Source: Candidatus Latescibacterota bacterium (GTDB lineage: Bacteria; Latescibacterota; UBA2968; GCA-2709665). Taken from it: DNA of 64,000 bases. The notes beneath the pieces are model-generated. The model searched no databases, was not told where the DNA came from, and worked only from the letters and a program-made list of their open reading frames with translations. Below, in pieces: positions 35,167 through 41,902 of this stretch (position 1 is its first letter; each line of letters opens with the position of its first letter). The position numbers and the translations under genes were made by a program. Location: assembly GCA_965205485.1 (NCBI GenBank), contig OZ242180.1, positions 864,001 through 928,000 on the forward strand, given 5' to 3'.

Positions 35167-35441
35167 TGAAACGCTCCTTCATTGGTTGTGAAGTCGGTCG
35201 TACCGGACGACATGCCATATAAAACCTCAGTGGCCGCCGGTGTCAAGGACGTAGCGACGCGACCTGCACCCCAATTGTGTGGCTTCGCTCCGCTCAGCCG
35301 CGCTTGATGAATGATTCGCGGGTAAAGCAGTATATATGGACGTTAAAAGCGCCTCGGCTCTTCGCCGGGGCGCTTTTCACGTTTGAATGCGAAAATGTTG
35401 CTGCAGCAGTCCAATATTTCTGCCGCATACCAACGGCAATG

Positions 35442-36632
35442 TCAATCGAAGTAATTCTGCCTGATGGATGCGGGAGGGGTGCGTTCGATGGGATCGTCCG
35501 ACGCGAGTTCGAATGCGAAACCGATGGGCGCGGGGCCGGGGTCGTCGAAGCGAACGTTGTAGGTGGTGCAGCCCCACCGGTCCCCGGTCGCGACGGCATC
35601 GAAGGCCTCGAAGGTCTGCCGCAGCGGATCGTACGCGAGGCGCCCATACAGTGTCATATCGAGACCCCGGGGCTTGTCAACCGTCAGGCCGCTGTGGGGA
35701 TTGGATTCGAAATTGGGTTCCCCTTCCAGGTGGATGCGGCCCTCCATGCGGAGCCGGACGAGGTCGGATTGGACAGATTCGACCGTCAGGCTGATCTCTC
35801 CGTCTTTCAGGTCTTCATCCTTCCATCCGTGCGATTGACCGCGTGCCGTGTCGATGAAGTGGCGCAGTGCGAGACGTCTGGTGAAGAAATCCGGCGCGCG
35901 CCAGGTCTGGCCGGGCACGACATTCCCGGGCACGAGAGACCCGGTCTCCTCCTGGGTAAACCACGCGAAGTCGATGTTGTGCCGGGGGTCCACGCCGCCG
36001 GAGTTCCGCGGAAGGTCGCGCACCGCGATTTTCAGTACAAGGCCGTTTTCCGGATAGGACCAACCGAGCATGGGATCGACGGGATAGGTTTCGGGAATCT
36101 CGGGTGACTCGCCGGTATCCGGGCGTTTCCGCCACCGTTCCAGGCTTTGCTCGAGCACTTCCAGGAGCGGCTCCGCATCCCGCGTGTTGATGGACCCCAG
36201 CAACTCGCCGTCCGAGGTACACGCGTACAGGCCCTGCCGGGTGGCCGTGGGTTCGGTTCGACCGCCGTAATGGCCCTGTTCGGCCACGAGGCGGAAGAAC
36301 TCGCCCTTGGCGTCTTTCTGCGTCTGGGTATAGCTGCAGTTGTCCGCAACGGGAATGTAGGATTCGTTGAGGATTCGGATAATCCTGGGATGGGAAAAGA
36401 CGGACTCACGGCCCGCGATGCCGTTGTTTCAGACGCAGCCGAGCGGGTTTCCGTTCATCGCCCAGATAAACAGCGGTCTCCCCACCGAAGCCGCGCGTCG
36501 CCGGGCAGTCCAGAGATCGGTCTCCCAGCCGATATCCGTCCACCGTACTTCCTCTGGCTTTGACCTGATCAGCGAGGACAGAGATTCAATCGTGTCCGGA
36601 CCTGGCTTCCATTCCTTTTGTCGATCAGTCAT
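35442..36632 (-). CDS. Putative selenoprotein (396 aa, Sec68), thioredoxin-like/SelN-like
   Basis: The 67-aa ORF and the 281-aa ORF are in the same frame, separated by one TGA (36431-36429); read-through gives NPLGCV-U-NNGIAGRESVFSHPRIIRILNESYIPV; RBS AAGGAG. Confidence 0.8.
36400..36416 (-). promoter_or_regulatory. Candidate bacterial SECIS hairpin
   Basis: GCGGGC-CGUGA-GUCCGU at +13..+29 after the UGA, with GU in the apical loop. Confidence 0.55.
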
Positions 36633-36924
36633 ATCGATCTCCTTTGTATTCTCAACTCTCGAGACCTACCCCCGTCGCCCCCTTCCTGAAGGAAGGGGGA
36701 ACGGTGATGAGTCGATGTACAGGGTTAAAGACGTGCCGGGATGGTGACATCCAGTCAATAAGAGTGTCTTTCGGTGACCGGCACGCGAAACCTGCCTTTC
36801 CTCCCTTTCTCCCGCGGGAGAGAGGGCCGGGGAGAGAGGTCTGCGGGGCTGGGTGGAGGAGTTGCTTTTGATCTTGCCTTTCATTTTTAGCTGATTGCTG
36901 ACAGCTGAGAGCTGATAGCTTCTC

Positions 36925-37689
36925 TTAACGTTTCAATATCCCCCCGTTCACGTCGATCGTGGCGCCGGTGATATACGCTCCCATCCGCGAGGCCAGGAAA
37001 AGGGCGGCGTAGGCGATTTCCTCGGGTTGGCCCACGTAACCCAGAGGAATGAGTTCGTTGATCCGGCTGCGGGTCTCGGGAGGGATTTGCATGCTGGTTT
37101 CGATGACGCCCGGCGTGATCGCGTTGACCGTGACGTTGCTGGCAGCCAGGTCGCGGGAGAGGGTCTTTGTCATCCCGATCATCCCGGCCTTCGAGCTGCC
37201 ATAGTGGACGCCGCCGGCGACACCGCCCGTCTGGCCGCTGATGGATGATATATTGATGATGCGGCCGCTTTTCTGTTTTTCCATGTAAGGAGCCGCTGCC
37301 AGGCAGCAGAGATACGCGCCGGTGAGATTCGCGCCGATCACCCGCTGCCACTCGGCATGGTCGACACCACTATAGGGTCCCGGGCTCGACACCCCGGCAT
37401 TGTTGACCAGGACGTCGACGCGGCCGAATTGGTCGAGAGTCCTTTGGACGAAGGCGTTGACATGTGTCTCGTCCGCAACGTCGGCCTGCGCGGCGAGTAC
37501 GTCTTTCCCGGCAGACAGCGCATCGGCGACCGCTTCCAATGGACCCGCGTTGCGCGCAACCAGCGTGAGGCGGGCGCCCGCCTGATGGAACACCTGGGCG
37601 ATGCTCCTGCCGATTCCCCGGCTTGCGCCGGTGACAATGGCGACCTGTCCGGAAAGGTCCAGAAGGTCGGCAAGAGGTTTCTGGGACAT
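36925..37689 (-). CDS. Short-chain dehydrogenase/reductase (FabG-like)
   Basis: TGASRGIG, NNAG, YGSSK, VNAITPG, DVNGG. Confidence 0.9.
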   Translation of the reverse strand: MSQKPLADLLDLSGQVAIVTGASRGIGRSIAQVFHQAGARLTLVARNAGPLEAVADALSAGKDVLAAQADVADETHVNAFVQRTLDQFGRVDVLVNNAGVSSPGPYSGVDHAEWQRVIGANLTGAYLCCLAAAPYMEKQKSGRIINISSISGQTGGVAGGVHYGSSKAGMIGMTKTLSRDLAASNVTVNAITPGVIETSMQIPPETRSRINELIPLGYVGQPEEIAYAALFLASRMGAYITGATIDVNGGILKR

Positions 37690-37772
37690 TGGGTATTCTA
37701 CTTCAGTGATGCCCGGAGACGTAAACAGAGGCTTTTCCGGCCGTGTCGACCGATCCCGTTAGTCTCCCGGGG

Positions 37773-39662
37773 TCAGATGAACTTTACGCTCTTCACTTCG
37801 CGGTTGGCCAGGCGGATTCCCCGGGCCCTGTTGCCGCGAACGGGATAGTCGGCAATGGCGAATTGCTCTTCGGTGATTCTCACGCGTGGTTTGGGCTTGA
37901 AGTTAGCCTGTATCGTACGCCTGGAGTCGGTGGTGAGTTTCAGGACACGGCAGCCTTCCGGCGCCAGTTCGTACCCCCGATTCAGGATGAACTTGCCGAT
38001 TTTGCACCGTTTGATGTAAAGATATCCGGTCCGGTTCTCCTTGTAGAGTATGTTGTAGACGCGGTCTTCATCCACGAAATCGCAGAAAAGCATGCCCTTG
38101 TCCACGAAAAGCTTCTCGGGGGCGTCCACGACGGAGTACGTTCCGGACTTGCGGATCACCAGAACACGGTCGTACGGAGACACGTCGAAAAGGGCGACGC
38201 CATTGACCTGGTGGCCCAGGTAACCGGTATTCCTGTCGTAGCGCAGCTTGAGATTTCGCTGGGCGGCTTCCCGGACGTCGACCTTCTGGATGCTTGCGAT
38301 CTCTGTCCTCCGGGGGTGATCGGCCCGGTATTTCTCTATGATCCCTTCGACGAACCCGATGGCGTAGGCCTGGATGCCGCGCAGGTTGGCACGGACCTCC
38401 CTGAGGCGCTTGCGGATTTCCTGCATTTCCTCCTGGGCCTTGTTGATATCGTAGAGCGATATGCGCCTGATGGGGATCTTGAGCAGGTTATCCACGTCCT
38501 CACGCGAGACTTCCGCCCTGATGCTCTCCCTGAAGTGTTCAAGCCCTTCGAACACCGCACGGTACACATCCTCGGAGGTGGTCTCCTCCTCGATGTTCTT
38601 GTAAATCCGGTTTTCGATGAAGATCTGTTCGAGCGTCTTCGCGTGATGCCGGGCGGTCAACCGCCGCTCTTCGAGTTTGAGTTCTTTCCTGAGCAACTCA
38701 ACCAGGCGGTCCGTATTGTATTGGATCACATCGGTCACGGTGGTGATCTGCGGCCGGTTCTCGCGTATGACCAGCAGATTCGCCGCAATTGACGTCTCGC
38801 AGTCCGTAAATGCATACAGGGCGTCGACGGTATCCCTGGTATGCACGCCGCGGGCGAGCTGGATTTCAATCTCCACCTGATCGGTCGTATAGTCGCTGAT
38901 ACCCGAGATTTTGAGTTTGCCTTTTTTGGATGCGTCTTCGATGGAGGCGATGAGGGTCTCGGTTGTCGTACCGAACGGCAGTTCGCGCACGATGATGCGT
39001 TTCGGATCCTTTGTATCCAGCCTTGCCCGGGCGAGGACCTTTCCGTTGCCGTCGTCATATTGGGAGACGTCAACCATCCCGCCCGTGGGAAAGTCGGGAA
39101 AGAGACTGATGGGTCTGTCCTGCAGACAGGCGATCTGCGCTTCGAGCAGTTCGATCAGGTTGTGCGGGAGGATCCGGGTAGTCATGCCCGCGGCGATGCC
39201 CTCGGAGCCAATGGCGAGCAGGACCGGGATCTTCGCGGGAAAAGCGAGCGGCTCGCGGTTGCGGCCGTCGTACGAATCTTCGAATTCGGTCGTCTCCGGG
39301 TTGAACAGGACCTCTCTTGCCAGAGGCGTGAGCCGGCATTCGATATAACGTGCCGCGGAGGCCTCGTCGCCCGTGAAGATGTTGCCGAAATTGCCCTGCC
39401 TGTCGATGAACAGCTCCTTATTGGCCAGATTGACGAGGGCGCCGAAGATGGAGAGGTCCCCGTGGGGATGGTACCTCATGGTCTGGCCCACGACGTTGGC
39501 GACCTTGTGGTACTTGCCGTCGTCCATCTCGTGGAGGGCGTGCAGAATGCGCCGCTGAACCGGCTTGAATCCGTCGTCGATACTGGGAATAGCCCGGTTC
39601 TTGATGGAATAGGACGCAAACTCGAGATAGTATTTTTCGTAAAGGGTGTCGACGTATGCCAC
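37773..39662 (-). CDS. parC: DNA topoisomerase IV subunit A
   Basis: RAIPSIDDGFKPVQRR, YHPHGD, QGNFG, AARYIECRL; short C-terminal domain without GyrA-box. Confidence 0.9.
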   Translation of the reverse strand: MAYVDTLYEKYYLEFASYSIKNRAIPSIDDGFKPVQRRILHALHEMDDGKYHKVANVVGQTMRYHPHGDLSIFGALVNLANKELFIDRQGNFGNIFTGDEASAARYIECRLTPLAREVLFNPETTEFEDSYDGRNREPLAFPAKIPVLLAIGSEGIAAGMTTRILPHNLIELLEAQIACLQDRPISLFPDFPTGGMVDVSQYDDGNGKVLARARLDTKDPKRIIVRELPFGTTTETLIASIEDASKKGKLKISGISDYTTDQVEIEIQLARGVHTRDTVDALYAFTDCETSIAANLLVIRENRPQITTVTDVIQYNTDRLVELLRKELKLEERRLTARHHAKTLEQIFIENRIYKNIEEETTSEDVYRAVFEGLEHFRESIRAEVSREDVDNLLKIPIRRISLYDINKAQEEMQEIRKRLREVRANLRGIQAYAIGFVEGIIEKYRADHPRRTEIASIQKVDVREAAQRNLKLRYDRNTGYLGHQVNGVALFDVSPYDRVLVIRKSGTYSVVDAPEKLFVDKGMLFCDFVDEDRVYNILYKENRTGYLYIKRCKIGKFILNRGYELAPEGCRVLKLTTDSRRTIQANFKPKPRVRITEEQFAIADYPVRGNRARGIRLANREVKSVKFI

Positions 39663-39690
39663 GGTTTCTCCTCGTTACCGCGTAAGAACT

Positions 39691-39735
39691 CAGGGGTCAG
39701 GGAAAGACGGGACCGCGGTTTTCTCCTGACCCCTG
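39691..39735. repeat. Inverted repeat CAGGGGTCAGG/CCTGACCCCTG between parE and parC
   Basis: 11-bp perfect arms. Confidence 0.65.
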
Positions 39736-39761
39736 TATCCTTGAGGGGATTGACCCGGAAT

Positions 39762-41663
39762 TCAGATCAAATTTTCGATGATGTAGTCCCTGCGTTCGGG
39801 GGTATTCTTGCCCATGTAGAAGCGGAGCGTGTTGGCGATTTCGGATATGGAACGGATATTGACTTTGACCAGCCGCATATCGTCGCCGATGAACTGGCCG
39901 AATTCCTTCGGCGAGATCTCCCCGAGCCCTTTAAACCGTGTAATCTCGGGGTTCTTGACCTCCTCCAGGGCGCTTTCGCGCTCCCGGTTGTTGTAACAGT
40001 AGCGCGTGACCTTGCTGTTCCGGACGCGGAAGAGCGGCGTTTCCAGGATATAGAGATGGCCGGCCAGCACCAGTTCCTCGAAATAATTCAGGAAATACGT
40101 GAGGAGCAGGTACCGGATGTGGTAACCGTCGTGGTCGGCGTCGGTGGCAATGACGATTTTGTTGAAACGCAGGTTTTCGATACCGTCTTCGATACCCAGC
40201 GCCATCATGAGGTTGTACAGTTCCTCGTTCTTGTACACCGCGGCCTTGTTCTTGCCGAATACGTTCAATGGAACGCCCTTGAGGCCGAAGATCGCCTGGG
40301 TGAGGACGTCGCGCGCGGCGACCATGGACCCCGCCGCCGAAGGGCCTTCGGTAATGAAGATGGTTGAGTCTTCGCCATGCTTCTTCTGGCCCAGGTGGAA
40401 TTTGCAGTCTTTAAAGTGCGGAATCTTGATTGCGATCTTCCGGGCAGCTTCCTTGGCTTCTTTCTTTACGGCGTTGAGTTCCTTTCTCAACGTTTCGTTC
40501 TGGGCGATTTTCTCGGACAGGCGCCCGGCCGCGGCCTGGTTCTTGTGAAGGAGGTCGACCACGGCGCTCTTGACCTCTGCGACAATCCAACCCCGAATAT
40601 CCGTATTCCCCAGCTTGTTCTTGGTCTGCGACTCGAAAACAGGCGCTTTGAGCTTGACGGCGACGGCGCCGGAGATGCTCTCCCGAACGTCGATGCCGTT
40701 GTAATTCTTCTTGTAGAATTCATTCACGCCCTTGAGGATGCCCTCCCGAAAGGCGCTCTGGTGGGCCCCGCCGTCGCTGGTGTGTTGGCCGTTGACGAAT
40801 GAGAAATACGTTTCCCCATAACTGGCCGTGTGGCTGAACGCGAACTCCAGGTATTGGGACTTGTGATACAATGGCTCATAGAGGGCGGTCTCGCCGACTT
40901 CGCGTGTGAGGAAGTCCAGCAATCCGTATCTGGATACGAATCGTTCCCTGTTGAAGACGAGCGAAAGTCCCCTGTTCAGGCATGCGTAGTTCCACAGTCG
41001 CTGCCGGACGTAATCGAAATTGAACGCAAAGTCATCGCCGAAGATCTGAACATCGGGCAGAAACTCGAAACAGGAGCCGTCGGGTTCCCCGGGTTTCCGT
41101 CCCTTCAGCTTCTTCTTCAACCGGCCGCGCTCGAAGCGGGCTTCGAAGTACTCTCCTTCCCGGAACGCAACCGCCCTGAAATCGGAAGCAAGGGCGTTGA
41201 CGGCCTTCGTGCCCACGCCGTTGAGGCCCACGCTGAACTGAAACACGTCATCGTTGTATTTCGCGCCGGTATTGATGATGGAAACGCAGTCGATGACCTT
41301 GCCCAGGGGAATGCCGCGGCCGTAGTCACGAACCCGGACCCGGTTGTCTTCGATGCTGACGTCGATCTTTTTTCCGAAACCCATGATGAATTCGTCTACG
41401 GCATTGTCGATGACTTCCTTCAGCAGGACGTAGATGCCGTCGTCCGGATTGGACCCGTCGCCAAGCCGGCCGATGTACATGCCTGTGCGGAGACGGATGT
41501 GTTCCAATGAGCTGAGCGTCTTGACCTTGGACTCGTCGTACCCGTGTCCGGGCGATGCGCCGTTGTTCTTCCCGGCGGTGGATCGACGGGCGGGCGCGGC
41601 TTTTCCATTAATGGAGAGCGAAAGTTGATCCGAACTGCGCACTGACGATTTCGATTCAGGCAT
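39762..41663 (-). CDS. parE: DNA topoisomerase IV subunit B
   Basis: EHIRLRTGMYIG, EVIDNAVDE, DYGRGIP, GLNGVG, TEGPSA, TDADHDG, RFKGLGE. Confidence 0.9.
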   Translation of the reverse strand: MPESKSSVRSSDQLSLSINGKAAPARRSTAGKNNGASPGHGYDESKVKTLSSLEHIRLRTGMYIGRLGDGSNPDDGIYVLLKEVIDNAVDEFIMGFGKKIDVSIEDNRVRVRDYGRGIPLGKVIDCVSIINTGAKYNDDVFQFSVGLNGVGTKAVNALASDFRAVAFREGEYFEARFERGRLKKKLKGRKPGEPDGSCFEFLPDVQIFGDDFAFNFDYVRQRLWNYACLNRGLSLVFNRERFVSRYGLLDFLTREVGETALYEPLYHKSQYLEFAFSHTASYGETYFSFVNGQHTSDGGAHQSAFREGILKGVNEFYKKNYNGIDVRESISGAVAVKLKAPVFESQTKNKLGNTDIRGWIVAEVKSAVVDLLHKNQAAAGRLSEKIAQNETLRKELNAVKKEAKEAARKIAIKIPHFKDCKFHLGQKKHGEDSTIFITEGPSAAGSMVAARDVLTQAIFGLKGVPLNVFGKNKAAVYKNEELYNLMMALGIEDGIENLRFNKIVIATDADHDGYHIRYLLLTYFLNYFEELVLAGHLYILETPLFRVRNSKVTRYCYNNRERESALEEVKNPEITRFKGLGEISPKEFGQFIGDDMRLVKVNIRSISEIANTLRFYMGKNTPERRDYIIENLI

Positions 41664-41902
41664 AACCCACCTTTTCGGGATCGCTTGAAACCGCAACCCC
41701 GCACGGCAAACTTCCAGCCGGGGAGACAGACGAACCTGACGCAGAGTCAGGCCTGAATGGGGCTCAAAAAGGAACCTAACTGTGGGGAAATAAAGGGGAA
41801 AGACAGCACTATAATATAGTGCATCTTTGTTCATCTTTCAAGGTGTTTTTTGCGCAGGCGCGCCAGACGGTCCGGAGGGAGTAAGGACGGGGAATGGCCC
41901 TT

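What the first reader, a model, noticed from the sequence alone, without database searches (positions are those of the whole stretch)
35442..36632. Hidden selenoprotein with a CxU redox motif resembling eukaryotic Selenoprotein N
Seen: a 67-aa ORF with a good RBS ends at TGA directly after ...AMNGNPLGCV. The frame continues with no further stop into the 281-aa ORF, which starts at a GTG with no clear RBS, giving one 396-aa protein. Established: an in-frame UGA two residues after Cys in a thioredoxin-like context (W..AR..A...RPLF) is the classic sign of selenocysteine. Inference, from my recollection of human SELENON (..[35 protein letters not shown]..): the segment MNGNPLGCVUNNGIAGRESVFSHPRIIRILNESY aligns well with it. 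A bacterial SelN-like selenoprotein with a novel beta-rich C-terminal half would be missed by standard annotation.
Basis: partly seen in the sequence, partly recalled or inferred. Interest (0 to 1): 0.88.

Follow-up and report, generated by a model that had tools for sequence, protein, structure and literature searches.

The report
Hidden selenoprotein, domain-swapped selenoprotein N relative
The stop codon inside this bacterial gene almost certainly encodes selenocysteine, giving one 396-residue redox protein from a large unnamed family that probably carries the same two domains as the muscle-disease protein selenoprotein N, but in the opposite order.

Summary
Confirmed, on the minus strand. 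TGA 36431-36429 lies in one 396-codon frame and is almost certainly Sec68. It is kept in 18 of 18 homologous loci from distant bacterial groups, whose final stop varies. A covarying SECIS-type hairpin follows, true Cys homologues exist, Trp 'homologues' are gene-calling artefacts, and the genome has selA, selB, selC and selD.
The model (pLDDT 96) is a thioredoxin domain, with Sec at the nucleophile position (C-x-U-x-x-G), plus a beta-sheet domain. No Pfam, NCBIfam or 2026 catalogue entry fits.
The SELENON link holds but needs correcting. The thioredoxin domains are homologous (E 1e-16 to bacterial, 8e-10 to mostly animal SELENON). The 'novel' beta half probably matches SELENON's middle domain (E 4e-6, above all shuffles; not significant by sequence search). 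The order is swapped: thioredoxin-beta here, beta-thioredoxin in SELENON. It is not the orthologue: true SELENON-order genes occur in Planctomycetota, animal SELENON nests among them, and this gene lies in a separate clade without membrane anchor or EF-hand. Likely a cytoplasmic Sec-dependent thiol reductase; substrate unknown; no experiment. The scan noted this family and bacterial SELENON homologues before, on other DNA; I found no note of the domain swap.

The parts
36639..36645 (-). Ribosome-binding site AAAGGAG, 6 nt before the ATG
   Evidence: sequence; a GGAG element also precedes the same ATG in most close loci
35442..36632 (-). Whole gene, 396 codons with Sec68; final stop TGA; no signal peptide
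   Evidence: hydrophobicity scan
36108..36560 (-). Thioredoxin-fold domain, residues about 25-175 (Thioredoxin_7/DsbH/AGR type; homologous to the SELENON C-terminal domain)
36435..36437 (-). Cys66, candidate resolving partner of Sec68
   Evidence: Cys in 91 of 125 aligned rows; role inferred
36429..36431 (-). In-frame TGA = Sec68, aligned with the first Cys of CxxC in a DUF255-type protein and with the Sec of SELENON; just before helix 69-77
36400..36416 (-). SECIS-type hairpin: 6-bp stem, CGUGA loop beginning 18 nt after the UGA
   Evidence: covariation; model test
35445..36080 (-). Beta-sheet domain, residues about 185-396; probable counterpart of the SELENON middle domain
   Evidence: model; hhalign
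35340..35382 (-). 19-bp inverted repeat 60 nt after the stop; terminator-like (inferred)
   Evidence: not reported by the terminator scan

Best explanation
One gene, one selenoprotein. SelB-bound Sec-tRNA is delivered to UGA68 by a stem-loop 18 nt downstream (inferred from established bacterial Sec recoding). The product is a soluble, probably cytoplasmic two-domain protein. Its thioredoxin domain places the selenolate of Sec68 at the start of the active-site helix, where thioredoxins keep their attacking cysteine. Most likely it reduces oxidised thiols (disulfides or sulfenic acids) on a partner, then resolves through Cys66 or a low-molecular-weight thiol, since the usual second Cys is Gly71. 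The beta domain most likely binds the target. Both domains descend from the same module as selenoprotein N, in swapped order. Shown: sequence, conservation, machinery, predicted fold, thioredoxin-domain homology. Probable: beta-domain homology (about 0.75). Inferred only: Se incorporation (about 0.97), reductase chemistry and target binding (about 0.55).
For: TGA in 18 of 18 loci; in all 47 full-length matches in the own phylum (position checked in the 30 fetched, 80, 102); in 30 of 30 top and 39 of 45 distant Planctomycetota matches. selA, selB, selC adjacent and selD, all over cut-off; selA in 43 of 45 carriers. Hairpin: 5 of 7 pairs with two-sided changes, 0 of 500 shuffles as high; SECIS model passed by 42 of 55 and 31 of 38 distinct loci against 0.22 and 0.20 at other codons; loop Arg codon CGT in 25 of 25 against 55 of 765 other Arg codons. 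Cys homologues. Fold. Register. SELENON: thioredoxin profile E 1e-16 (bacterial), 7.7e-10 (mostly animal); beta profile E 4e-6, probability 87, 99 columns, score 44.0 against shuffle maxima 20.2 and 28.9. SELENON's reported role as a reductase of oxidised SERCA thiols (PMC10650576, PMC5981252, passages).
Against: No expression or proteomic data. The window's 48-nt stretch alone folds no better than shuffles (z -0.75) and prefers another hairpin; the covariation rests on about five divergent rows. One carrier genome (Chloroflexota, G169) has no selA match, nor do two 80-81% complete ones; selA is common in the phylum anyway (131 of 168). Beta-domain homology is not significant by profile-to-sequence search (best E 0.48 and 0.14), only E 0.02 against the animal-dominated profile, and with the first, smaller alignment the bacterial-only comparison (26.8) did not beat block shuffles (max 29.8). 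No SELENON structure was compared. No conserved neighbours point to a substrate. 12 of 18 full-length database homologues have no Cys at 68.
Confidence: 0.62

Rival explanations
1. A real selenoprotein, but a redox sensor or ligand-binding module rather than a turnover enzyme: Sec68 oxidation changes how the module binds a partner.
For: The module is fused behind Ser/Thr kinases (4 proteins), FecR and before a SecDF head; 4 of these 6 fusions lack Cys/Sec at 68; four genomic paralogues also lack it; no canonical resolving Cys (119).
Against: Stand-alone copies keep TGA almost without exception, as expected of a catalytic residue; no regulator is a conserved neighbour.
Confidence: 0.27
2. A real thioredoxin-type selenoprotein related to SELENON only through the thioredoxin domain; the beta-domain likeness is chance or convergence, so there is no domain swap.
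For: Profile-to-sequence tests not significant; E 0.02 against animal-dominated SELENON; the match leans on one short motif plus amphipathic strands; other Sec-thioredoxin families without this beta domain score higher than SELENON-order proteins against the family's thioredoxin profile.
Against: Colinear match over 99-116 columns with two different query profiles (E 4e-6, 1.9e-6), kept when the seven hand-picked rows are removed (E 1.3e-5), above 80 shuffles and the reversed profile; cross-domain controls give E 0.14 or worse.
Confidence: 0.25
3. Nonsense mutation, two separate genes, or TGA read as Trp.
For: 249 of 267 database homologues align only after residue 64; two have Trp at 68.
Against: The codon is invariant over four phylum-level groups while the final stop varies; it cuts a thioredoxin fold at its active site; cluster mates of the Trp forms end exactly at ...GDPLGCV, on 65 contigs in one case; TGA closes 651 of 1148 long open frames in this genome.
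Confidence: 0.02

Closest known systems
Selenoprotein N (SELENON/SEPN1) of animals
   Same: Homologous thioredoxin domain with Sec at the same position followed by x-x-G; probably the same beta domain (90, 91).
   Different: Domain order swapped; C-x-U-N-N-G instead of C-U-G-S-G; no membrane anchor, no EF-hand; separate clade in the tree.
Bacterial SELENON-order proteins (L086, L119-L128; found here, noted before by the scan, not in the catalogue read)
   Same: Closest profile match for both domains (E 1e-16 and 4e-6); same kind of SECIS hairpin (9 of 10 pass).
   Different: Beta domain before thioredoxin; hydrophobic N-terminal leaders; absent from the 168 genomes of the window's phylum that were searched.
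Thioredoxin_7 / DsbD-C / DsbH / DUF255 / AGR / UAS thioredoxin folds (3f9u, 2lst, 3ph9, 3ira, 2ju5, 7tkv)
   Different: No CxxC; only 2 of 134 members reach Pfam Thioredoxin_7 at E 0.03 (42); extra beta domain.
Catalogued bacterial thioredoxin-like selenoproteins (VPGUxxT NF041383; Sec.1 CxU PF13192; Trx7/PDZ NF041199)
   Same: Thioredoxin fold with Sec at the redox site.
   Different: NF041383 best 19 bits against cut-off 275 (72); no Pfam or NCBIfam hit for this protein.

Membership tests
Bacterial selenoprotein | In-frame UGA conserved at one position with flanking conservation | tested here: met
   18 of 18 loci; 30 of 30 and 39 of 45 Planctomycetota matches
Bacterial selenoprotein | Cys-containing homologues | tested here: met
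   6 of 18 full-length database homologues have Cys at 68 (24), e.g. P0033, P0413 (109); their codons were not seen
Bacterial selenoprotein | SECIS hairpin 16-37 nt downstream with G in the first two loop positions | tested here: met
   model from PMC13188914 section 5 (35); single-sequence fold not significant
Bacterial selenoprotein | selA, selB, selC, selD in the genome | tested here: met
Bacterial selenoprotein | Selenium incorporated in vivo | not testable with these tools
   no RNA or protein data
SELENON | Homologous thioredoxin-like Sec domain | tested here: met
   E 7.7e-10 to 1e-16 (90, 119)
SELENON | DDQSC-U-GSG motif (adjacent C-U) | tested here: not met
   NPLGCV-U-NNG here; C-U-G-S-G invariant in A3 (59)
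SELENON | N-terminal membrane anchor and EF-hand | tested here: not met
   no hydrophobic leader, no Pfam hit; EF-hand seen weakly in SELENON rows
SELENON | Middle beta domain present | tested here: inconclusive
   profile-profile E 4e-6 above shuffles; not significant by sequence search; no structure comparison
SELENON | Domain order beta then thioredoxin | tested here: not met
   thioredoxin then beta
SELENON | Falls inside the SELENON clade | tested here: not met
   SELENON-order clade of 19 rows 100/98 excludes it; it lies in a 28-row clade 100/95 (one tree of 160 columns)
Thioredoxin_7 / DUF255 | Thioredoxin fold with N-terminal W-x-A helix | tested here: met
Thioredoxin_7 / DUF255 | CxxC motif and Pfam threshold | tested here: not met
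   U-x-x-G
VPGUxxT thioredoxin-like selenoprotein NF041383 | Curated cut-off 275 bits | tested here: not met
   0 for this protein, best member 19 bits

The most novel reading that the evidence does not exclude
SELENON's two-domain core (beta domain plus Sec-thioredoxin) is an old bacterial module that exists in both domain orders. Animal SELENON descends from the beta-thioredoxin form found in Planctomycetota and kin; this gene belongs to a much larger, uncatalogued thioredoxin-beta sister family, and its short soluble members are natural minimal models for SELENON's unsolved structure and chemistry.
Probability: 0.65. Interest if true: 0.8.

Novelty: new variant of a known kind. Interest (0 to 1): 0.68.

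Why it matters
It adds a large selenoprotein family (1706 clusters at 50% identity match at E up to 0.001; found in 45 of 168 and 95 of 301 genomes of two phyla) that gene callers cut in two and that is missing from a 2026 inventory of 119 prokaryotic families. SELENON is a muscle-disease protein with no solved structure among the PDB matches seen here and a debated mechanism. If both domains are shared, a 396-residue protein without anchor or EF-hand makes the role of SELENON's unannotated middle domain and of the Sec site testable in a bacterial expression system, and it points to a bacterial origin of an animal selenoprotein.

Full report
Observation. The feature is on the minus strand. A 67-codon ORF (36632-36429) ends in TGA, and the frame stays open to 35442, giving 396 codons. 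AAAGGAG lies 6 nt before the ATG. The gene's final stop is also TGA.

The TGA is conserved. All 18 related loci found in the genome collection (32-89% identity; records titled Latescibacterota, Gemmatimonadota, Poribacteria, Chloroflexota, Planctomycetota or uncultured) have TGA at the same codon. The final stop in the 16 loci that reach it is TGA 8, TAA 5, TAG 3. With a profile, 45 of 168 genomes of the own phylum match, and all 47 full-length matches hold a TGA; its place was checked in the 30 fetched. In a sample of 301 genomes of the phylum of G171 (titled Planctomycetota), 95 match; the 30 best loci all have TGA, as do 39 of 45 matches in 40 further regions chosen from the weaker hits (two of the six without are a partial duplicate and a contig-end fragment). 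Many of these loci are close kin and some were fetched twice, so they are not independent counts. In the protein databases 249 of 267 homologues align only after residue 64, as expected if gene callers stop at the TGA; 1706 clusters match at E up to 0.001, of which I saw 150.

What stands at position 68 elsewhere. Of 18 full-length database homologues, 6 have Cys, 2 Trp, 1 Arg and 9 other residues. The Trp forms are most likely alternative-code gene calls: their cluster mates end exactly before that residue, one of them on 65 contigs. TGA is an ordinary stop here (651 of 1148 open frames of 500 codons or more).

Recoding signals. The genome has selA, selB and selC side by side and a selD with its own TGA, all above cut-off. 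selA is found in 43 of the 45 carriers in the phylum, but also in 131 of 168 genomes overall, and in 4 of 5 genomes reached through loci; the Chloroflexota one has none. A hairpin with a CGUG[A/C] loop starts 18 nt after the UGA: 5 of 7 pairs change on both sides, 0 of 500 shuffles reach this, and slid registers score far lower; the signal comes from about five divergent rows. My implementation of the published SECIS rules (PMC13188914 section 5) is passed by 42 of 55 close and 31 of 38 distant distinct loci, against 0.22 and 0.20 at other codons. The Arg codon in the loop is CGT in 25 of 25 loci, against 55 of 765 other Arg codons. Against: the window's 48 nt alone fold no better than shuffles and prefer another hairpin.

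Test of the SELENON idea. Eight of the former plus L086 were aligned; the named hits among the best 120 were selenoprotein N or EF-hand-domain proteins of animals. That profile found SELENON-order genes (beta domain, then thioredoxin with one TGA) in 10 of 301 Planctomycetota genomes and none in 168 of the own phylum. Thioredoxin domains: profile-profile E 1e-16 against the bacterial set and 7.7e-10 against the animal-dominated set. Against 22,287 open frames of the genome, 28 of 49 added test proteins (all 19 other Sec-thioredoxins and 9 of 12 bacterial SELENON-order entries, one of the 12 lacking that domain) outranked every background frame including the DUF255 protein; animal SELENON did not. 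Beta domains: with 134 rows E 0.003 (bacterial) and 1.2e-4 (mixed), the first not above block shuffles; with 239 rows E 4e-6, probability 87, 99 columns, score 44.0 against maxima of 20.2 (40 column shuffles), 28.9 (40 block shuffles) and 15.4 reversed; E 1.3e-5 without seven rows that I had picked by eye; E 0.02 against the animal-dominated profile. The bacterial and animal SELENON beta domains match each other at E 1.5e-39. Profile-to-sequence searches were not significant. I put beta-domain homology at about 0.75. If so, the two families hold the same module in opposite order.

Not the orthologue. In a tree of 61 thioredoxin domains (160 columns; a hand-picked subset of the loci), the 8 eukaryotic rows nest inside the bacterial SELENON-order rows (19 rows, 100/98), and the window's protein lies in a separate clade of 28 thioredoxin-beta rows (100/95). 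The root is not fixed. Motif, anchor, EF-hand and order all differ. So it likely works like SELENON's redox domain but is not a member.

Mechanism. Inferred from the register and from thioredoxin chemistry: Sec68 attacks an oxidised thiol on a partner; Cys66 or a small thiol resolves it; the beta domain selects the target. SELENON is reported to reduce oxidised SERCA thiols (PMC10650576 and PMC5981252, passages). Neighbours give no substrate. Fusions to Ser/Thr kinases, FecR and a SecDF head, 4 of 6 without Cys or Sec at 68, keep a sensor role open.

Literature. PMC13188914: outline, section 5, and parts 1-2 of 3 of section 7 with the whole Table 1 of 119 families; no SELENON-like entry and none with this motif. 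Passages only: PMC13326102 (plus one cut supplement), PMC12013277, PMC11227280, PMC7539508, PMC4807772; none names a bacterial SELENON. Searches (listings) gave no description of this family or of a domain swap; most subscription papers, PMC12013261 and database annotations were out of reach. The scan's own notes already hold this family on another genome and bacterial SELENON homologues (read after my own test); a word search for the domain swap found none.

Verdict. A real, uncatalogued selenoprotein family; SELENON-related, probably in both domains with swapped order; function inferred. Interest 0.68.

Noticed in passing
L086:1170-2393 (-); L119-L128: Bacterial genes with SELENON's own order and motif (beta domain, then DD[QE][ST]C-U-x-S-G thioredoxin), hydrophobic leaders and SECIS hairpins; eukaryotic SELENON nests among them in the tree.
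   Followed up: partly
L130-L148: Further Planctomycetota thioredoxin-type genes with one TGA at the same site (G-x-L-D-x-x-x-U-x-A/G-G and related) and other C-terminal parts; 17 of 18 pass the SECIS model.
   Followed up: partly
L151, L173, L174, L182: Tandem paralogues of the family; in three of the four pairs one copy has TGA and the other has lost Cys/Sec.
   Followed up: no
P0149, P0153, P0158, P0176, P0251, P0263, P0222: The module is fused to Ser/Thr kinases, FecR, a SecDF head or a C-terminal EF-hand.
   Followed up: partly
G000:C1:3225171-3228695 and 2394761-2395684: selA-selB-selC cluster; selD elsewhere is itself a selenoprotein gene.
   Followed up: yes
window 36660-36830: Intergenic hairpin-rich stretch with raised depth and many loose ends in contigs, suggesting a multi-copy repeat element.
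   Followed up: no
window 36925-41834 (-): Upstream short-chain dehydrogenase and type II topoisomerase subunits; the dehydrogenase and subunit A are in the same place in L013 and L019 only among the loci sampled.
   Followed up: partly
P0044, P0064 clusters: The same genes are in the databases both cut at the TGA and read through with Trp, a source of false 'Trp homologues'.
   Followed up: yes
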